A stretch of DNA of 64,000 nt from Squalus acanthias (Eukaryota). The stretch lies in NCBI GenBank assembly GCA_030390025.1, contig CM059432.1, positions 145,080,001 to 145,144,000 on the forward strand, in the 5' to 3' direction. Made by a program: the position numbers and the translations under genes. A model generated the notes under the pieces. That model was not told the DNA's origin. It saw nothing but the letters and a program-made list of their open reading frames with translations, and ran no database searches. Positions 2,181 to 60,146 of the stretch are shown here, piece after piece (positions within the stretch are counted from its first letter, which is position 1; each line of letters begins with the position of its first letter).

Positions 2181-2588
2181 ATGAAGGTTTATTTCAGTGT
2201 CATTCTGGTGACCTCCTTCCTATGTCAGTATTTAAAGCTCTAACTTGTCTTTGTCGTCCTGTTGCTGTCCATGACATAAAGTAACAATTGTTTTGAATCC
2301 TTTAGCTCCAGATGGATGCGTTGCTCAAAGCTTGATTCAGCCTGAATTATCGATCACCCAAAGCCCGACAAAAAACGTACGGGTTACTTGTAAAGTAGAC
2401 GCACAACTGATCAATGCCAACATTCATTGGTATCGACAAACTCCAGGTCAGACCCTCAAACGGATCCTCTATATTCAGGCTGCAACTGATTCTAAGGTGG
2501 AGGAAGAATTTCGTGAAAGATTTTCAGCTGAAAAGATTCCTGTAGACAACGTTTGCAATCTTGTAATGAAGAGCATCAAACAGACCGA
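2181..2588 (+). pseudogene. TRGV: TCR V segment pseudogene (V1, TRGV-like): leader 2181-2223, intron 2224-2311, V exon 2312-2588
   Basis: Leader MKVYFSVILVTSFL, phase-1 GTCAGT donor, CTCCAG acceptor; V has Cys23 (VTCK), IHWYRQ and RILY but ends at QTD with no YYC/second conserved Cys. Confidence 0.85.
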
Positions 2589-2619
2589 CACAGTGATACA
2601 GAAAAGCTTTACAAAAACG
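2589..2619 (+). other. Aberrant RSS (15-nt spacer)
   Basis: CACAGTG + ATACAGAAAAGCTTT (15 nt) + ACAAAAACG. Confidence 0.8.
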
Positions 2620-2764
2620 TTCAGCTTTTTCCAAGTAGACTTGTGTGCTCTTTGAGTGGTTAATACAGAAATCCACAACTGTACCATTCTACCTTTTCTA
2701 CTGCATCTCCTCCAGCAAGAGTTCACTGCTATAGTGAGAGGGCTACACTGCAAATAAGAGTCAA

Positions 2765-23221: not shown

Positions 23222-25652
23222 ATAGTAACAGACTTCAGGAGGACAGAGACAGACTGGTGAAACGGGCAGACACAAGGCAGATGAAATTTAATGCAGAGAA
23301 ATGTGAAGTGATTCATTTTGGTAGGAAGAATGAGGAGAGGCAATATGAACTAAATGGTACAATTTTAAAGAGGGGTAACAGAGAGACCTGGGAGTGTATG
23401 TACACATGTCTTTAAAGGTGGCAGGACAAGTTGAGAAGGCTGTTAAAAAAGCATATGGGATCCTTGATGTTATAAATAGAGGCATAGAGTACAACAGAAA
23501 GGATGTTATGCTAAACTTTTATAAAACACAGCACAGGCCCCAAATTATTGTGACCAATTCTGGGCACCACACTTTAAGAAGGATGTCAAGGCCTTAAAGA
23601 AGGTGCAAAGGAGATTTACTAGAACAGTAATAGGGATGAGGGACTTCAGTTACGTGGAGAGACTGGAGAAGCTGGGCTGTTCTCCTTCGAGCAGAGAAGG
23701 TTAAGGGGAGATTTAATAGAGATGTTCAAAATTATGAAGGGTTTTGATAAAATAAGAAGGAATAGTTTCCAGTGGCAGAAGGGTCCGTAACCAAAGGCCA
23801 CAGATTTAAGGTAATTGGCAAAAGAACCATGAGGGAAAAAAATTACACAGCATGTTGTTGTGATCTGGAATGCAATGCCTGTAAGGGTGGTGGAAGCAGA
23901 TTCAATAATTTTCAAAATTGAATTGGATAAATACTTGAAGGGGAAAAATCTACAGTGCTATGGGGAAAGAGCAGGGGAGTAGGACTAATTGGATAGCTCT
24001 TGCAAAGAGCTGGCACAGGCACGATGGGCCAAATGGCATATAATGGCTGTAAGATTCTATGATGCATCAACAATTGGAATAGATGTACCATGCATATCAC
24101 AGTCTCTCCTCTTGAGCTTTGCAGAGCCACAGTAACACACAGGGGGCACTCACCACAACCCCCACTAGTTGGACTATTTTCAAGACAGTGAGTAGCTCTG
24201 GATCCCCAGGTGAATCTGTAAGCAACACATTACTGGGAACAAAAATAAACTTTCATTTGGAAAGGCATGGGTTAAATCAAGGAGAGCCAGCATGGATTTG
24301 TTAAAGGTAAATCGTGTCTGACTAACTTGATTGAACTCTTTGATGAGGTAACAGAGACGGTTGATCAAGGTAGTGCTGTTGTGTATCTGGACTTTTGGAA
24401 AGCATTCCCTTTTGTTCACTCCTGGTGCAGAGACTCACCAGTTGGGAGCTCATATCTAGAAATCCTGTCTGGGCTGCCCATGGTTTTCCATCTATCAAAG
24501 TGAATGGGAATGCAAACAGGAAGTTACCTTCAAGGGTTTAGAAAGTGTCACGTGTCCAAATACCGATCAAAAACAACAACTTGCATTGATATTGCTCCTT
24601 GAGCAGGGAAACACGTCCCAAGTTCTTACAGGAGCGTTATTATACACCTACCAGTCTTAATCAATTAGACAACATCATTGCCCATTGGTGTGGGATCTTG
24701 GCTTAGTTGGCTTCTCCCTCCCCAATTCACAAGGACAGCTCTTCCCTTAACCACCTCTCCCCATCCACAAGGGCTCTCTGTCCCCTTAACCGCCAACTCC
24801 CCCAACTGTTCAGAGCACGCACTCGCCTTGAGCACGATCCTTGGTGGCGGGTGCTCGCCATAGTTCAGCGAGGTCTATCTGGTCACTTGATGCAGCGTTT
24901 CATGCCCGGAGCAGCGGGATCTCAGAGCGGGGAGGAGGCCGCGGCGATGGAGCAGCATAGAGCGGGAGCGGCAACTTTCAGCGGGCAGCTTCTTAACGCG
25001 GAAACCCACACACACTGTGCCCAAGAACATGGATTGGGAGCTCGGGCAGGAGTTACCGACCCGAACAGACCCTGCTCAGCTTAGCAGGAGCCCACACACA
25101 CACAGAGCTTTTACACTGGGGCGCTGTGGAGGAGGGAAAGGTTCGGTGGGAAAGTAAAAATCACAACAAAAATACCTTTAATTCAGATAAATGCGGGTTC
25201 AGAGCATCTACTTCCTTGTCAAATGTAAATTCAAATATGTCAGGGATCTAACACTGGGGAGAGTGAAACAAATTCAGTGTGAAGTTTGATCCAGTCTTGG
25301 GAGAAAGGTTTTCCTCCTCGCCCCTGTCTGACTGCACACATCTCCCAGCTGCTGCAACCAAACAGGATAACTCGGCGCAATTCGTTTGTGATTTTAAAAG
25401 TGAGCAATCCTAAATTGAATTTTGAATTCACAATTTCCGCGAGTGTGAAAGCAATGTGCGAGGTGACTATCGCACAGAGAGTAACTGACGGTCTCACATT
25501 TTATAATGTGGGAGGGGGGACTGTAAACTGGGCGGGTTTTATGCCGACAGGAAATTCGCAGCCTCGGCCTGATAGGGGAGGGGGACTCGGGTCCTTCACA
25601 TTGTTATCAGTGGGGACTAACCGAGTAACGAGGGAGGCTTGGTCACTGCACG

Positions 25653-26075
25653 ATGTTCTGGGTGATTGTGGCGTTATTTTTACCCTGTACGTGTTTCTAT
25701 TTTTTAAAATGTTATTTATGTCCATTCATTGTGCAGCAAATGTTCAGCATTTTCAAATCAGGTCATTTTGTGCATTTTTTCCAGGTGGGTGTTTTGCTCA
25801 GACTTTGACACAGACTCCAATATCGATTACAAAGGAGGCCACTAAAAGTGCCAGATTTCAGTGTGCGATCAGCGGAGGGAGCAACAGAATCCACTGGTAC
25901 CAGCAAAGGCCGGGTCAGGCGCCCGCCAGAATACTCTATTATGATAGCAGCGCCATTCGGGATCCGGAATTCAGCTCCCGGTTCAAAGCAGATAAGAAAG
26001 GCGATGTGTGCACTTTAATAATTAATGACATCGCGAAGAATGACACTGCCACTTATTACTGTGCCTATTGGGACA
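25653..26075 (+). CDS. TRGV: Intact TCR V segment V3: leader 25653-25686, V exon 25785-26075
   Basis: MFWVIVALFLP+GTACGT donor, TTCCAG acceptor; CGCFA|QTLTQ...FQC...IHWYQQ...TATYYCAYWD. Confidence 0.93.
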
Positions 26076-26114
26076 CACAGTGCTCAACAGAGGCAGAAAC
26101 CCTTGACAAAAACC
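26076..26114 (+). other. Canonical 23-RSS (V3)
   Basis: CACAGTG + 23 nt + ACAAAAACC. Confidence 0.95.
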
Positions 26115-29100
26115 CGGCGCGTTGCTTCGCTCCTCTTTCACTTACCACAGAAAAAAAAACTAGAACCAAATAGCGCCTTTAACGTAGTAAAACGTCCCAA
26201 GGCGCTTCACAGGAGCGATCATCAAACAACATTTGACAGCGAGCCAGACTTTAATCAAACTTTTATGTTTCAAATGTACAACAGAAATTCTGGCAGAGTT
26301 TCATATTTGTCCAGGGCTCAAAGGGTTAACATATGAGGATAAGTTGCATAAAAGTTGGCTTGTATTCCCCCTGAGTTACGAAGGTTGAGAGGCGACCTAC
26401 TTTAACCGAGATATTTAACATGATTAAGGGATTGGATAGATAACAGGGAAACTATTTCCTCTGGTGGGAGAGTCCAGAACCTTTAAAATTAGAGCCAGGC
26501 CGTTCAGGGGGTGATGTCAGGAAGCACTTCTTCACACAAAGGGTCGGGGAAATCTGGAACTCTCTCCCTCAAAAGGCCGTGGCTGCTGGGGGACAATTGG
26601 AGCTTTCAAGGCTGAGATTGATAGATTTCTGTTGGGTAAGGGTATCAAGGGATATGGAGCAAAGGAGAGTAATCAGATTGAACGGCTGAACAGGCTCGAG
26701 GGGCTGAATGGCCTCCTCCTGTTCCTACGATACACAATCAGGATAGACATAGTAGACATACAACCCATAACAGATGAGAAGGGTTTACCGGCCCCGGAAT
26801 GGATGGACAAGGGTTGAGGCAGAGCGGTGGTCTTGGATCCCTGCAACCTGCGGCAGTGGTCTCTTCCTCTTTGGTCATCTCCCAAGGCTGGTGGGGGTGT
26901 TAAGCTAAAGCTAGCATGAATCCACTCTGGGGAAGCACTTCCCCTCCCCAACCCCCGAGGAAGACCTTCCCCTCTCTGCAACGCCCCCCGCCCTCCGCGG
27001 CTGGGAAGCTCTTTCCCTCTCTGCCTATTTTTCCCTTTCAGCTGCCCGTTTATATACCTTATTTTGGGGGGTCAGTGGATACCTCACGTCAATCATTTGT
27101 TACCCATTCAATTGTCCAATTACAGGGGAATAAGTACCTATGGCAGATCCCTCCCAGACTCATGAGGTCATTCCTCTGCTTATCTCCTGTTTGGACATCT
27201 TGCACTTTCTCCTAGACAGTTTGTTTATCATAAGGATCCTTACTCGACCGCTTATCAGGCCTAGCTATGGCTGCATGGAGGCCTGTTTCTGCGTTCTGCC
27301 CTTGTAAACGACCTCAGTTCTTTGTGCAACTCCTTATCTGATATGATTGGTTCCTTCTGTGTCATCAGCTGAGCTAGGCAAAACCATTTCTTTTATAAAA
27401 CCATTATTTCTTTTACAATTCATAATTTCTTGCCATTCACGATTTCTTACAACACTAATCCAGGTCAAAATTAATTGACACTGGAAATATATGGGCGAAT
27501 AAATGAGAATCCCAGCACGATTTGTTAAAGGCAAATTGTGTGTAACTAACTTGATTGAGTTCCTTCATGAAGTAACATAGAGGGTTGACCAGGGTAGTGC
27601 GGTTGATGTTGTATATATGGGCTTTCAAAAGGCGTTTGATAAAGTACCATATAATAGATTTGTTAGCAAAATTGAAGCCCATGGGATTAAAGGGATAGTG
27701 ACTGCATGGATAAGAAATTGGCTAAGGGACAGAAAGCAGTGGTGAATGAAAACAAAAAATGGTGGAAATACTCAGCAGGTCAGGCAGCATCTGTGGAGAG
27801 AGAAACAGAGTTAACATTTCAGTTCAATGACCAATTTTCAATCCATGCCAGTATATTACCCCCAATCCCATGTGCTTTAACTTTGCACACTAACCTCTTA
27901 TGTGGGACTTTATCAAAGGCCTTTTGAAAATCCAAATACACCACATCCACTGGTTCTCCCTTATCTATTGTACCAGTTACATCCTCAAAAAACTCCAGTA
28001 GGTTTGTCAAACACAATTTCCCTTTCATAAATCCATGTTGAATTTGTCTAATCCCGTTGATATTTTCTAAGTGTCCTGTTATCACATCCTTTACAATAGA
28101 GTCTAGCATTTTCCCTACTATGATGTTAGGCTAACCGGTCTGTAGTTCCCTGTTTTCTCTCTCCCTCCTTTTTTAAATAGTGAGGTTACATTTGCCACCC
28201 TCCAATCTGCAGGAACTGTTCCATAATCTATAGAATTTTGGAAGATGACAACCAATGCATCCACTATTTCCATGGCTACCTCTTTTAGTACTCTGGGATG
28301 CAGATTATCAGTGCCTAGGGATTTATCGGCTTTCAGTCCCATTAATTTCTCCAGCACTATTTTTTTACTAATACTAATTTCCTTTAATTCCTCCTTCTCA
28401 CTGGACCCTTGGTTCCTTAGCATTTCTGGAAAGTTATTTGTGTCCTCTTCCGTGAAGACAGAACCAAAGTATTTGTTTAATTGCTCAGCCATTTCCTTGT
28501 TCCCCATTATAAATTCTCCCGTTTCTGACTGTAAGGGACCTACATTTGTCTTCAGTAATGTTTTTCTTTTTACCTACTTGTAGAAGCTTTTACAGTCCGC
28601 TTTTATGTTCTTTGCAAGTTGACTCTCATACCCGATTTCCCCCCTCTTAATCAATCCCTTGGTCCTTTATTGCTTAACTCTAAACTGCTCCCAATCCTCA
28701 GGCTTGCTACTTTTCTGGTAACTTGATATGACTCCTCTTTGGATCTAATTCTATCCTTAATTTATTTTGTTAGCCATGGTTGGCCAATTTTCCTTTTGTG
28801 TTTTTGCGCCAGAAAGGAATGTATAACTGTTGCAATTCATGCATTCATTCCTTAAATGTTAGCCATTGTCTATCCACCATCATGCCTTTTATTGAAGCTC
28901 CACAATCTATCATAGCCAACTCCCTCCTCATACCTTCGTAGTTTCCTTTGTTTAGATTTAGGACCCTAGTTTCGGATTGGATTACATCACTTTCCATCTT
29001 AATGAAGGTGTTCTCCAGGGGACCACTGCTCTTTCTGAGATATATTAATGACCTGGATCGTGCCATAATTTCAAAGTTTTCAGATGACAAAAAACTCAGA

Positions 29101-31595
29101 AATGTAGTAAACAGTGAGGAGGATAGTAACAGACTTCAGGAGGACATAGACAGACTGGTGAAACGGGCAGACACAAGGCAGATGAAATTTAATGCAGATA
29201 AGTGTGAAGTGATTCATTTTGGTAGGAAGAATCAGGAGAGGCAATATGAACTAAATGGTACAATTTTAAAGGGGGGGGGGAACAGAGAGACCTGGGAATG
29301 TATGTACACATGTCTTTGAAGGTGGCAGGACAAGTTGAGAAGGCTGTTAAAAAAGCATATGGGATCCTTGATGTTATAAATAGAGGCATAGAGTACAACA
29401 GAAAGGATGTTATGCTAAACTTTTATAAAACACAGCATAGGCCCCAAATTATTGTGGCCGATTCTGGGCACCACACTTTAAGAAGGATGTCAAGGCCTTA
29501 AAGAAGGTGCAAAGGAGATTTACTAGAACAGTAATAGGGATGAGGGACTTCAGTTACGTGGAGAGACTGGAGAAGCTGGGCTGTTCTCCTTTGAGCAGAG
29601 AAGGTTAAGGGGAGATTTAATAGAGATGTTCAAAATCATGAAGGGTTTTGATAAAATAAGAAGGAATAGTTTCCAGTGGCAGAAGGGTCCGTAACCAAAG
29701 GACACAGATTTAAGGTAATTGGCAAAAGAACCATGAGGGAAAAAAATTACACAGCATGTTGTTGTGATCTGGAATGCAATGCCTGTAAGGGTGGTGGAAG
29801 CAGATTCAATAATTTTCAAAATTGAATTGGATAAATACTTGAAGGGGAAAAATCTACAGTGCTATGGGGAAAGAGCAGGGGAGTAGGACTAATTGGATAG
29901 CTCTTTCAAAGAGCTGGCACAGGCACGATGGGCCAAATGGCATATATCTGTGCTGTAAGATTCTATGATGCATCAACAATTGGAATAGATGTACCATGCA
30001 TATCACAGTCTCTCCTCTTGAGGTTGCAGAGCCACAGTAACACACAGGGGGCACTCACCACAACCCCCACTAGTTGGATTATTTTCAAGACAGTGAGTAG
30101 CTCTGGATCCCCAGGTGAATCTGCAAGCAACACATTACTGGGAACAAAAATAAACTTTCATTTCAAAAGGCATGGGTTAATCAAGGAGAGCCAGCATGGA
30201 TTTGTTAAAGGTAAATCGTGTCTGACTAACTTGATTGAATTCTTTGATGAGGTAACAGAGACGGTTGATCAAGGTAGTGCAGTTGTGTATCTGGACTTTT
30301 GGAAAGCATTCCCTTTTGTTCACTCCTGGTGCAGAGACTCACCAGTTGGGAGCTCATATCTAGAAATCCTGTCTGGGCTGCCCATGGTTTTCCATCTATC
30401 AAAGTGAATGGGAATGCAAACAGGAAGTTACCTTCAAGTGTTTAGAAAGTGTCACGTGTCCAAATACCGATCAAAAACAACAACTTGCATTGATATTGCT
30501 CCTTGAGCAGGAAAACACGTCCCAAGTTGCTTACAGGAGCGTTATTATACACCTACCAGTCTTAATCAATTAGACAACATCATTGTCCATTGGTGTGGGA
30601 TCTTGGCTTAGTTGGCTTCTCCCTCCCCAATTCACAAGGACAGCTCTTCCCTTAACCACCTCTCCCCATCCACAAGGGCTCTCTCTCCCCTTAACCGCCA
30701 ACTCACCCCAACATAACAACAGAAAACGCTGGAAAACTCACCCCAACTGTTCAGAGCACGCACTCGCCTTGAGCACGATCCTTGGTGGCGGGTGCTCGCC
30801 ATAGTTCAGCGAGGTCTATCTGGTCACTTGCTGCAGCGTTTCATGCCCGGAGCAGCGGGATCTCAGAGCGGGGAGGAGGCCGCGGCGATGGAGCAGCATA
30901 GAGCGGGAGCGGCAACTTTCAGCGGGCAGCTTCTTAACGCGGAAACCCACACACACCGTGCCCAAGAACATGGAATGGGAGCTCGGGCAGGAGTTACCGA
31001 CCCGAACAGACCCTGCGCAGCTTAGCAGGAGCCCACACACACACACAGAGCTTTTACACTGGGGCGCTGTGGAGGAGGGAAGGGTTCGGTGGGAAAGTAA
31101 AAATCACAACAAAAATACCTTTAATTCAGATAAATGCGGGTTCAGAGCATCTACTTCCTTATCAAATGTAAATTCAAATATGTCAGGGATCTAACACTGG
31201 GGAGAGTGAAACAAATTCACTGTGAAGTTTGATCCAGTCTTGGGAGAAAGGTTTTCCTCCTCGCCCCTGTCTGACTGCACACATCTCCCAGCTGCTGCAA
31301 CCAAACAGAATAACTCGGCGCAATTAGTTTCTGATTTTAAAAGTGAGCAATCCTAAATTGAATTTTGAATGCACAATTTCCGCGAGTGTGAATGCAATGT
31401 GCGAGGTGACCATCGCACAGAGAGTAACTGACGGTCTCACATTTTATAATGTGGGAGGGGGGACTGTAAACTGGGCGGGTTTTATGCCGACAGGAAATTC
31501 GCAGCCTCGGCCTGATAGGGGAGGGGGACTCGGGTCCTTCACATTGTTATCAGTGGGGACTAACCGAGTAACGAGGGAGGCTTGGTCACTGCAGG

Positions 31596-32019
31596 ATGTT
31601 CTGGGTGATTGTGGCGTTATTTTTACCCTGTACGTGTTTCTATTTTTTAAAATGTTATTTATGTCCATTCATTGTGCAGCAAATGTTCAGCATTTTCAAA
31701 TCAGGTCATTTTGTGCATTTTTTCCCAGGTGGATGTTTTGCTCAGACTTTGACACAGACTCCAATATCGATTACAAAGGAGGCCACTAAAAGTGCCAGAT
31801 TTCAGTGTGCGATCAGCGGAGGGAGCAACATAATCCACTGGTACCAGCAAAGGCCGGGTCAGGCGCCCGCCAGAATACTCTATTATGATAGCAGCGCCAT
31901 TCGGGATCCGGAATTCAGCTCCCGGTTCAAAGCAGATAAGAAAGGCGATGTGTGCACTTTAATAATTAATGACATCGCGAAGAATGACACTGCCACTTAT
32001 TACTGTGCCTATTGGGACA
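31596..32019 (+). CDS. TRGV: Intact TCR V segment V4: leader 31596-31629, V exon 31729-32019
   Basis: As V3; CDR1 GGSNI. Confidence 0.93.
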
Positions 32020-32058
32020 CACAGTGCTCAACAGAGGCAGAAACCCTTGACAAAAACC
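32020..32058 (+). other. Canonical 23-RSS (V4)
   Basis: CACAGTG + 23 nt + ACAAAAACC. Confidence 0.95.
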
Positions 32059-37537: not shown

Positions 37538-37960
37538 ATGTTCTGGGTGATTGTGGCGTTATTTTTACCCTGTACGTGTTTCTATTTTTTAAAATGTTAT
37601 TTATGTCCATTCATTGTGCAGCAAATGTTCAGCATTTTCAAATCAGGTCATTTTGTGCATTTTTTCCAGGTGGGTGTTTTGCTCAGACTTTGACACAGAC
37701 TCCAATATCGATTACAAAGGTGGCCACTAAAATTGCCAGATTTCAGTGTGCGATCAGTGGAGGGAGGAACACAATCCACTGGTACCAACAAAGGCCGGGT
37801 CAGGCGCCCGCCAGAATACTCTATTATGGAAACAGCGCCATTCGGGATCCGGAATTCAGCTCCCGGTTCAACGCAGATAAGGAAGACGATGTGTGCACTT
37901 TAATAATTAATAACATCGCGAAGAATGACACTGCCACGTATTACTGTGCCTATTGGGACA
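37538..37960 (+). CDS. TRGV: Intact TCR V segment V5: leader 37538-37571, V exon 37670-37960
   Basis: As V3; CDR1 GGRNT, CDR2 YGNS, HV4 NADKEDD. Confidence 0.93.
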
Positions 37961-37999
37961 CACAGTGCTCAACAGAGGCAGAAACCCTTGACAAAAACC
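37961..37999 (+). other. Canonical 23-RSS (V5)
   Basis: CACAGTG + 23 nt + ACAAAAACC. Confidence 0.95.
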
Positions 38000-44435: not shown

Positions 44436-44858
44436 ATGTTCTGGGTGATTGTGGCGTTATTTTTACCCTGTACGTGTTTCTATTTTTTAAAATGTTATTT
44501 ATGTCCATTCATTGTGCAGCAAATGTTCAGCATTTTCAAATCAGGTCATTTTGTGCATTTTTTCCAGGTGGGTGTTTTGCTCAGACTTTGACACAGACTC
44601 CAATATCGATTACAAAGGTGGCCACTAAAATTGCCAGATTTCAGTGTGCGTTCAGTGGAGGGAGCAACACAATCCACTGGTACCAGCAAAGGCCGGGTCA
44701 GGCGCCCGCCAGAATACTCTATTATGATAGCAGCGCCATTCGGGATCCGGAATTCAGCTCCCGGTTCAACGCAGCTAAGAAAGGCGATGTGTGCACTTTA
44801 ATAATTAATGACATCGTGAAGAATGACACTGCCACTTATTACTGTGCCTATTGGGACA
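44436..44858 (+). CDS. TRGV: Intact TCR V segment V6: leader 44436-44469, V exon 44568-44858
   Basis: As V3; CAFSGGSNT, YDSS, NAAKKGD. Confidence 0.93.
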
Positions 44859-44897
44859 CACAGTGCTCAACAGAGGCAGAAACCCTTGACAAAAACC
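44859..44897 (+). other. Canonical 23-RSS (V6)
   Basis: CACAGTG + 23 nt + ACAAAAACC. Confidence 0.95.
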
Positions 44898-51469: not shown

Positions 51470-51892
51470 ATGTTCTGGGTGATTGTGGTGTTATTTTTAC
51501 CCTGTACGTGTTTCTATTTTTTAAAATGTTATTTATGTCCATTCATTGTGCAGCAAATGTTCAGCATTTTCAAATCAGGTCATTTTGTGCATTTTTTCCA
51601 GGTGGGTGTTTTGCTCAGACTTTGACACAGACTCCAATATCGATTACAAAGGTGGCCACTAAAAGTGCCAGATTTCAGTGTGCGTTCAGTGGAGGGAGCA
51701 ACACAATCCACTGGTACCAGCAAAGGCCGGGTCAGGCGCCCGCCAGAATACTCTATTATGGAAACAGCGCCATTCGGGATCCGGAATTCAGCTCCCGGTT
51801 CAACGCAGATAAGGAAGACGATGTGTGCACTTTAATAATTAATAACATCGCGAAGAATGACACTGCCACGTATTACTGTGCCTATTGGGACA
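51470..51892 (+). CDS. TRGV: Intact TCR V segment V7: leader 51470-51503, V exon 51602-51892
   Basis: As V3; leader MFWVIVVLFLP, CAFSGGSNT, YGNS, NADKEDD. Confidence 0.93.
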
Positions 51893-51931
51893 CACAGTGC
51901 TCAACAGAGGCAGAAACCCTTGACAAAAACC
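51893..51931 (+). other. Canonical 23-RSS (V7)
   Basis: CACAGTG + 23 nt + ACAAAAACC. Confidence 0.95.
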
Positions 51932-59681: not shown

Positions 59682-60107
59682 ATGTTCTGGGTGATTGTGG
59701 TGTTATTTTTACCCTGTACGTGTTTCTATTTTTTTTAAATGTTATTTATGTCCATTCATTGTGCAGCAAATGTTCAGCATTTTCAAATCAGGTCATTTTG
59801 TGCATTTTTTCCCAGGTGGGTGTTTTGCTCAGACTTTGACACAGACTCCAATATCGATTACAAAGGTGGCCACTAAAAGTGCCAGATTTCAGTGTGCGAT
59901 CAGTGGAGGGAGCAACACAATCCACTGGTACCAACAAAGGCCGGGTCAGGCGCCCGCCAGAATACTCTATTATGGAAACAGCGCCATTCGGGATCCGGAA
60001 TTCAGCTCCCGGTTCAACGCAGATAAGGAAGACGATGTGTGCACTTTAATAATTAATGACATCGCGAAGAATGACACTGCCACGTATTACTGTGCCTATT
60101 GGGACAG
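59682..60107 (+). CDS. TRGV: Intact TCR V segment V8: leader 59682-59715, V exon 59816-60107
   Basis: As V3; YGNS, NADKEDD; coding end one nt longer (TGGGACAG). Confidence 0.93.
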
Positions 60108-60146
60108 CACAGTGCTCAACAGAGGCAGAAACCCTTGACAAAAACC
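60108..60146 (+). other. Canonical 23-RSS (V8)
   Basis: CACAGTG + 23 nt + ACAAAAACC. Confidence 0.95.

What the first reader, a model, noticed from the sequence alone, without database searches (positions are those of the whole stretch)
25940..26010. Linked CDR2 and HV4 dimorphism with charge reversal: possible germline ligand-sensing variants
Seen: V3/V4 have YDSS + KADKKGD, V6 has YDSS + NAAKKGD (both net +1), and V5/V7/V8 have YGNS + NADKEDD (net -3). DS/GN and KG/ED covary perfectly while FR1/CDR1 sites shuffle. Known: in mammals, germline V-gamma HV4/CDR2 surfaces bind butyrophilin(-like) proteins (human Vg4-BTNL3, Vg9-BTN2A1, mouse Vg7-Btnl6). Inference: two functional V classes tuned to different BTN/B7-family ligands in a cartilaginous fish. 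Physical linkage (~45 nt) alone could also explain the covariation.
Basis: partly seen in the sequence, partly recalled or inferred. Interest (0 to 1): 0.7.

Follow-up and report, generated by a model that had tools for sequence, protein, structure and literature searches.

The report
Reshuffled shark TCR-gamma V gene family
Eight near-identical immune-receptor gene segments in a likely shark genome differ mainly in their surface loops, which are likely under selection for variety; the two linked charge types are real in this window but likely reflect short-range linkage, because they come apart in a further copy and in related samples.

Summary
The residues and charges are there as described, but the two-class reading does not hold. 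The locus is TCR gamma (V-23RSS, J-12RSS, one C, STARD3NL-like exons 3'). The family has eight intact copies, two beyond the window. V9 is a third type (YENS + NADEKGN) that joins CDR2 N to HV4 KG. A silent and two non-coding sites follow the same split, units are mosaics (at least 20 recombination intervals in 3.4 kb), and 15 of 51 non-coding informative sites have a perfect partner within 60 nt. In contigs of related samples 3 of 6 listed records spanning both loops show the reverse phase (D57+ED; N58+KG; GN+KG). What survives: replacement changes pile up in CDR1, CDR2 and HV4 (12 on 33 sites against 5 silent on 62; p=0.003; CDR1 densest), and the genome holds a large butyrophilin-like family (IgV, IgC, B30.2), so a ligand of the proposed kind exists. 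Best reading: a young, gene-converting V family whose exposed loops are diversified combinatorially. Butyrophilin-driven tuning of HV4 remains possible and untested.

The parts
25653..25686 (+). V3 leader exon (GT donor at 25687)
   Evidence: in-frame splice GT/AG, no stops; same in 8 of 8 copies
25785..26075 (+). V3 V-exon of TCR gamma (C23 at 25862, W41, C104 at 26060, CAYWD end)
25874..25888 (+). CDR1 (5 codons): 6 replacement changes, 0 silent, among 8 copies; densest loop
25940..25954 (+). CDR2 (IMGT 56-65); variable D/G/E57 (25944, 25945) and S/N58 (25947), predicted C'-C'' hairpin tip
25979..26026 (+). HV4 region (IMGT 75-92); variable K/N77 (25987), D/A79, K/E80, K/E83 (25997), G/D84 (26001), D/N85; 84-85 at the predicted D-E hairpin tip, 83 beside it
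25944..26153 (+). Linked haplotype block: V5/V7/V8 (with V9 at some sites) versus the rest, including silent 26053 and non-coding 26150, 26153
26076..26114 (+). 23-spacer RSS, identical in 8 of 8 copies
31729..32058 (+). V4 exon + RSS (YDSS, KADKKGD)
37670..37999 (+). V5 exon + RSS (YGNS, NADKEDD)
44568..44897 (+). V6 exon + RSS (YDSS, NAAKKGD)
51602..51931 (+). V7 exon + RSS (YGNS, NADKEDD)
59816..60146 (+). V8 exon + RSS (YGNS, NADKEDD); two more copies, V9 and V10, follow about 3 and 10 kb beyond the window end
23222..29122 (+). Approximate tandem unit of 6-7.5 kb carrying one V each, 96-98.5% identical between copies, mosaic along its length

Best explanation
This is an eight-copy, recently duplicated T-cell receptor gamma V family of a likely shark, in which the CDR2 and HV4 variants travel together likely because they sit about 55 nt apart on one inherited or converted block, while selection likely favours amino-acid variety in all three germline loops. 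Mechanism: (shown) tandem units of 6-7.5 kb each carry an intact leader, V exon and 23-RSS upstream of six J-like segments and one C; (shown) the units are mosaics whose nearest relatives change along their length; (inferred) unequal crossing-over and gene conversion copy patches between paralogues, so one event spread the G57-N58/E83-D84 patch, with its silent and non-coding passengers, to V5, V7 and V8; (shown) breakpoints between CDR2 and HV4 do occur, giving N58+KG in V9 and D57+ED, N58+KG and GN+KG in contigs of related samples; (inferred) replacement changes in CDR1, CDR2 and HV4 are retained about four times more often than neutral changes, which widens the germline repertoire combinatorially rather than making two classes; (inferred, from published shark work) somatic hypermutation adds to this after rearrangement. 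What the loops are selected against (antigens, or the butyrophilin-like family for HV4) is not determined.
For: Locus: V 23-RSS, J 12-RSS, one C; MENTAL-domain exons on the minus strand about 42 kb 3' of the C exon, as STARD3NL flanks TRG in PMC7349638 (passages). 8 of 8 copies intact. Mosaic: V4=V5 over 23236-24400 but V3=V4 over 25931-26600; Hudson-Kaplan Rm=20 over 3.4 kb; segment trees differ. Linkage control: 15 of 51 non-coding informative sites have a perfect partner within 60 nt; 4 of the 9 sites with the V5/V7/V8 split in six copies are silent or non-coding. Decoupling: V9; run X2 record 6 (96 nt, depth 25.2) is D57+E83/D84 and record 7 (61 nt, depth 12.6) is N58+K83/G84 by depth arithmetic; run X7 record 13 (148 nt, depth 2.6) is GN+KG. 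Mustelus orthologue pairs D57-S58 with D84. Selection: loops 12 replacement changes/32.7 sites vs 5 silent/62.5 sites, p=0.0025, and vs framework 10/180.8, p=2e-5; similar for three HV4 definitions; permutation against non-coding patches P=0.0001-0.006.
Against: Only eight non-independent sequences and five silent changes; whole-exon pN/pS is about 1; Rm can be inflated by recurrent mutation; loop limits were set from IMGT anchors after the data were seen. The 25931-26160 block holds three deep lineages (9-15 differences in about 230 nt between, 0-8 within) against 0-24 in about 1,160 nt upstream, which fits selection keeping distinct CDR2-HV4 types, and the original phase also occurs elsewhere (run X8 records 19 and 20; 2 of 6 spanning records; 1 undetermined). 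Contig evidence is from short unitigs with the CDR2 sites 2-12 nt from a record end, one at depth 2.6, and tables were cut (13 records not shown). A non-coding patch just 3' of the RSS (26120-26186) is as variable as the CDR2-HV4 window (11 sites in 67 nt).
Confidence: 0.7

Rival explanations
1. Diversifying selection on HV4 and CDR2 is driven by the expanded butyrophilin-like family: each germline loop combination (more than two) reads different BTN-like paralogues, as human Vg4 and Vg9 do.
For: CDR2+HV4 alone show a replacement excess (9 on 31.3 sites, p=0.0014; permutation P=0.001-0.017). 44 strong BTN-type IgC exons on C26 and two scaffolds, 21 IgV exons at E<1e-20, and one collinear IgV-IgC-PRY/SPRY set whose IgV matches CD276/MOG/BTN3A/BTN2A1/BTNL chains. 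The stretch after the second Cys of 15 BTN-like IgV paralogues ranges from -6 to +1 in charge. R20 and D79 are kept in the shark orthologues aligned (V6 has A79); PMC7083227 (passages) names Vg9 R20, E70, D72, E76 as docking residues and shows that E70K cuts activation (mapping to IMGT 20/77/79/83 is recalled).
Against: CDR1, whose mutation had little effect on BTNL3 binding in humans (PMC6868513, passages), is the densest loop (0.53 vs 0.29). The shark D-E loop is one residue shorter than human Vg4's (two shorter than Vg9's, recalled). PMC12841164 (passages) reports BTN retained in squamates that lost gamma-delta TCRs, so BTN presence does not imply a TCR ligand role.
Confidence: 0.25
2. One reading: exactly two co-adapted classes (DS/KG basic, GN/ED acidic) tuned to two ligands, held together by epistatic selection.
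For: 7 of 8 copies in this assembly keep the coupling; both combinations of the original kind also occur in run X8; E83-D84 with G57 occurs in the catshark orthologue P0002; the block lineages are deep.
Against: V9 is a third type; reverse-phase records in X2 and X7; silent and non-coding passengers share the split; CDR2 charge change opposes the HV4 change and whole-domain charge is not bimodal; K/N77 cuts across the classes.
Confidence: 0.08
3. Everything is neutral: relaxed loops plus a locally high mutation rate or an old converted patch.
For: Whole-exon pN/pS about 1; mean pS (0.038) close to pN (0.041); equally variable non-coding patch after the RSS; weak AID-hotspot trend in the exon (5 of 24 vs 8 of 110, p=0.057).
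Against: Loop replacement density 0.35-0.37 is four times the silent, intron and downstream density (0.077-0.086) and survives permutation against the most variable flank (P=0.006); 12 of 12 changes in CDR1, CDR2 and IMGT 81-86 are replacements.
Confidence: 0.2
4. The copy variants are assembly or somatic artefacts (mis-joined repeats or hypermutated lymphocyte DNA).
For: Units are 96-98.5% identical, hard to assemble; shark TCR gamma hypermutates with tandem changes (PMC5931798, PMC7349638, passages).
Against: All copies are unrearranged with intact RSS; the same variant letters (for example those of V6, V9, V10 and the extra G at 26075) recur in public runs. Mis-joins could still add to apparent mosaicism.
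Confidence: 0.05

Closest known systems
Shark TRG locus (sandbar shark: 5 V, 3 J, 1 C; nurse shark: 9 V genes assigned in 3 families)
   Same: Translocon V-J-C with one C, V 23-RSS and J 12-RSS; orthologous V in Chiloscyllium, Scyliorhinus and Mustelus at 58-64% identity; signs of tandem somatic changes in one contig. Numbers from PMC7349638 and PMC5931798 (passages).
   Different: 15 V segments here, 8 of them one young subgroup with 89-99% protein identity to V3; the sandbar locus has single-member subgroups.
Birth-and-death and gene-conversion evolution of V-gene subgroups with replacement excess in germline CDRs (general knowledge; e.g. human TRGV1-8 subgroup, recalled)
   Same: Tandem expansion, patchwork exchange between paralogues, loops more variable than framework.
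   Different: Documented here in a cartilaginous fish, with HV4 joining CDR1 and CDR2 as a diversified loop.
Human Vg4-BTNL3 and Vg9-BTN2A1 germline CDR2/HV4 recognition
   Same: Variable residues lie in the same loops; close paralogues differ in HV4 charge (human Vg2/Vg4 differ in BTNL3 binding through few HV4 residues, PMC6868513 passages); BTN-like genes present.

Membership tests
TCR gamma V segments (TRGV) | V-set domain with C23, W41, C104, leader exon and 23-spacer RSS, open frame | tested here: met
   8 of 8 copies
TCR gamma V segments (TRGV) | J segments with 12-RSS and a C exon downstream | tested here: met
   six J-like motifs at +122.4 to +125.8 kb, four with a 12-RSS detected; C exon at about +129.9 kb; 32% to a duck protein named TCR gamma
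TCR gamma V segments (TRGV) | Synteny with STARD3NL (3', inverted) and AMPH (5') | tested here: met
   for MENTAL-domain exons 42 kb 3' on the minus strand; AMPH was not tested
TCR gamma V segments (TRGV) | Rearranges to J | tested here: met
   run X10 record 3 (organism C, KG type) continues into a tail matching the J at +125.8 kb in 27 of 28 nt; one contig, depth 4.25, a related organism
BTN-binding Vgamma (Vg4/Vg9/Vg7 mode) | Variable residues lie in exposed CDR2 and HV4 | tested here: met
   residues 57-58 and 84-85 at hairpin tips of the model (pLDDT about 88); solvent exposure was not computed
BTN-binding Vgamma (Vg4/Vg9/Vg7 mode) | A butyrophilin-type ligand (IgV-IgC-B30.2) is encoded | tested here: met
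   exon linkage into one transcript and the transmembrane exon were not checked
BTN-binding Vgamma (Vg4/Vg9/Vg7 mode) | Direct CDR3-independent binding through CDR2/HV4 | not testable with these tools
   needs binding assays
BTN-binding Vgamma (Vg4/Vg9/Vg7 mode) | Tissue-restricted selection of T cells using the V | not testable with these tools
   only contigs, tissue not on record
Co-adapted two-class dimorphism | Only two states, coupled beyond what linkage gives | tested here: not met
   V9 third type; non-coding control; reverse-phase records
Immunoglobulin light-chain cluster (automatic name of orthologues) | Cluster organisation and C without a transmembrane exon | tested here: not met
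   translocon of 15 V before one J-C block; related full-length shark proteins P0046, P0069, P0085 end in a hydrophobic segment with a lysine

The most novel reading that the evidence does not exclude
The shark Vgamma HV4/CDR2 face is a butyrophilin-reading surface in an arms race with a 40-plus-member BTN-like family, and gene conversion works as a germline mixer that deals CDR1, CDR2 and HV4 modules into new ligand specificities; Vgamma-BTN recognition would then date to the root of jawed vertebrates.
Probability: 0.2. Interest if true: 0.7.

Novelty: new member of a known kind. Interest (0 to 1): 0.3.

Why it matters
As it stands it is a clean example of V-gene birth-and-death with conversion and loop-focused selection in a shark, and a warning that covariation over 50 nt among young paralogues is one event, not six. 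It also hands over a testable panel: natural V domains differing by 1-10 residues, mostly in CDR1, CDR2 and HV4, and a large BTN-like family from the same genome, which makes the open question of how old Vgamma-butyrophilin recognition is directly testable.

Tried and rejected
Complex prediction V3 + one BTN-like IgV (1 of 21 IgV hits): no answer, score 0.28 against a mark of 0.34, alignments not used, no controls folded; not evidence either way. PDB sequence searches to align a human Vgamma residue by residue returned only antibody chains in the rows shown, so the Vg9 mapping stays recalled; fold searches gave generic V domains, with marsupial TCR chains 7k0x first in Foldseek and 1hxm_B at Z 10.2 (rmsd 2.5, 92 aligned) tied with many others. 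Germline AID-hotspot bias: p=0.009 with hotspots taken from any copy fell to p=0.057 with majority-sequence hotspots, none in flanks; dropped. Conversion of GN from the neighbouring V at +75.8 kb (YYGN): codons differ (GGG AAT vs GGA AAC); not supported. No RNA holder listed; X8 and X10 are guesses; 7 of 15 listed runs were laid; X12 covered almost nothing and X1 had a hole. Homologue searches gave only 2 shark proteins among 7 hits, birds among 12 longer hits, and one further clear orthologue among 150 listed representatives, 9 of which I read: too few for cross-species codon models. Chen et al. 2009 (PMC2689029) is not held. Eight paper searches listed no paper whose title or abstract start deals with shark Vgamma HV4 variation or shark Vgamma-BTN binding; most subscription papers and all supplements were not seen. 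Earlier-finding look-ups were empty. Splice scripts had wrong offsets and were replaced.

Full report
Setting. The window lies in a 3.7 Gb vertebrate genome. Six-frame translation shows V-set exons each followed by a 23-spacer RSS. In 254.5 kb around the window there are 15 V segments, six J-like motifs at +122.4 to +125.8 kb (four with a detected 12-RSS), and one C exon at about +129.9 kb. MENTAL-domain exons lie on the opposite strand about 42 kb further 3', matching the STARD3NL border of TRG loci described in PMC7349638 (passages). The nearest proteins are from Chiloscyllium, Scyliorhinus and Mustelus at 58-64%. It is a TCR gamma locus of a cartilaginous fish, likely a shark. Eight of the V segments form one young subgroup (V3-V8 in the window, V9 and V10 about 3 and 10 kb beyond it); 8 of 8 have leader, GT/AG intron, open frame and an identical RSS.

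The observation. By anchor-based IMGT numbering the sites are D/G57, S/N58 (CDR2) and K/E83, G/D84 (HV4); in an AlphaFold model (mean pLDDT 84.6) 57-58 and 84-85 sit at hairpin tips. The +1/-3 charges hold for the HV4 heptapeptide alone; adding CDR2 gives 0/-3, and whole-domain charge runs from +3 to -1 without two groups. V9 (YENS, NADEKGN) is a third type that pairs N58 with K83-G84.

Is the covariation more than linkage? No. Nine sites share the V5/V7/V8 split among the six copies and four of them are silent or non-coding (25637, 26053, 26150, 26153). The split is thus one branch of a local genealogy, a single event rather than six observations. The units are patchworks: V4 and V5 are identical over 23236-24400, V3 and V4 over 25931-26600, and at least 20 recombination intervals are needed in 3.4 kb (recurrent mutation can inflate this); segment trees differ. 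In non-coding DNA 15 of 51 informative sites have a perfect partner within 60 nt, and for the six copies 11 of 39 such pairs split identically.

Other samples. Of 15 listed runs I laid 7. Six listed contigs span CDR2 and HV4. Three show the reverse phase: in X2 (organism A) record 6 must carry D57 (at 37829 the only unchanged depth, 16.6, belongs to record 5) and is the only record with E83-D84 (unchanged depth 25.3 against its 25.2); record 7 has four differences, all accounted for by T74, K77, K83 and G84, so it keeps N58; in X7 (organism C) record 13 has six differences from V5, all listed and none in CDR2, and four from V3, so it reads GN + KADKKGN. Two records in X8 keep the window's phase, and one in X4 is undetermined. 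Limits: these are short unitigs, the CDR2 sites lie 2-12 nt from a record end, record 7 has only 30 nt on each side of its centre, X7's depth is 2.6, and part of the tables was cut. Both loop states occur under two organism labels, so they are not private to one individual. One X10 contig runs from a KG-type V into the J at +125.8 kb (27 of 28 nt), showing rearrangement; one X8 contig carries a three-base tandem change of the kind reported for shark hypermutation (PMC5931798, passages). Among distant sharks, Mustelus pairs D57-S58 with D84, Scyliorhinus has G57 with E83-D84, Chiloscyllium D57-S58 with Q-N.

What is selected. The whole exon has pN/pS about 1, but changes are not spread evenly: CDR1, CDR2 and IMGT 81-86 hold 12 replacement changes on 32.7 sites and no silent ones, against 10 on 180.8 framework sites (p=2e-5) and 5 silent on 62.5 sites (p=0.0025); wider HV4 definitions give the same. 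Drawing patches of equal length from non-coding flanks gives P=0.0001-0.006 for the three loops and 0.001-0.017 for CDR2+HV4. CDR1 is densest (0.53 per site against 0.28-0.29). The block 25931-26160 keeps three lineages 4-6.5% apart, deeper than upstream DNA. Against this: eight related sequences, five silent changes, and a non-coding patch after the RSS that is as variable as the CDR2-HV4 window. I read this as likely diversifying selection on all germline loops.

The ligand idea. Germline CDR2/HV4 binding of BTNL3 and BTN2A1 is established for human Vg4 and Vg9 (PMC6868513, PMC7083227, PMC7348870; passages). This genome has the means: 44 of 79 matches are BTN-type IgC exons at E<=1e-14 on C26 and two scaffolds (the scaffolds may repeat C26 copies), 21 IgV exons and a collinear IgV, IgC, PRY-SPRY set over about 50 kb; PMC12841164 (passages) already reports butyrophilins across jawed vertebrates, four cartilaginous fishes among the species tested, and also in squamates without gamma-delta TCRs. 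So HV4 tuning to BTN-like paralogues stays possible (about 0.2-0.25) but would be graded and combinatorial.

Verdict. Observation partly confirmed; two co-adapted classes unlikely (0.08); best explanation a young, converting TRGV subgroup with loop-focused diversifying selection and linkage-made covariation (0.7). New member of a known kind; interest 0.3.

Noticed in passing
L001:2707-3036 and L002:659-989 (about 3 and 10 kb beyond the window end): Two more intact copies of the family: V9 (YENS, NADEKGN; a third type) and V10 (YDSS, KADKKGD).
   Followed up: yes
G000:C26 about 0.02-7.6 Mb, plus C2738 and C3359: Large butyrophilin-like cluster: 44 strong IgC (PF22705) exons and 21 IgV exons in several subfamilies, one locus with IgV, IgC and PRY/SPRY exons in order; one IgV copy has two stops (L038).
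   Followed up: partly
window 2326-2620: 5'-most V segment lacks the YYC motif: the frame runs ...KQTD straight into a heptamer and nonamer about 15 nt apart; looks like a truncated pseudogene with an odd spacer.
   Followed up: no
window 26009-26011 (IMGT 87) and orthologues: An extra cysteine in FR3 (xCTL) is kept in all eight copies, three other sharks and duck Vgamma; no partner cysteine evident.
   Followed up: no
window 26039-26047: N-glycosylation sequon NDT at IMGT 97 in all eight copies, just before the last strand.
   Followed up: no
window 26075; V8 60107: V8 and V10 have one extra G before the heptamer, changing the coding end; the same insertion occurs in runs X1 and X2.
   Followed up: partly
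window 23236-25640 versus 25799-26600: Upstream DNA of the units is about three times less diverse (pi 0.012) than the V exon (0.038) and 3' flank (0.029): homogenisation seems stronger over the promoter side.
   Followed up: partly
run X8 record 19, run X10 record 2: Tandem and CDR2 changes absent from the eight germline copies (TTC>AAA; I58; V57), compatible with somatic hypermutation or unseen alleles; depth about 3.5.
   Followed up: no
window 26168 onward: A very high-copy repeat begins about 55 nt after the V3 RSS (depth over 10^6 in X1); a possible substrate for the unequal exchanges.
   Followed up: no
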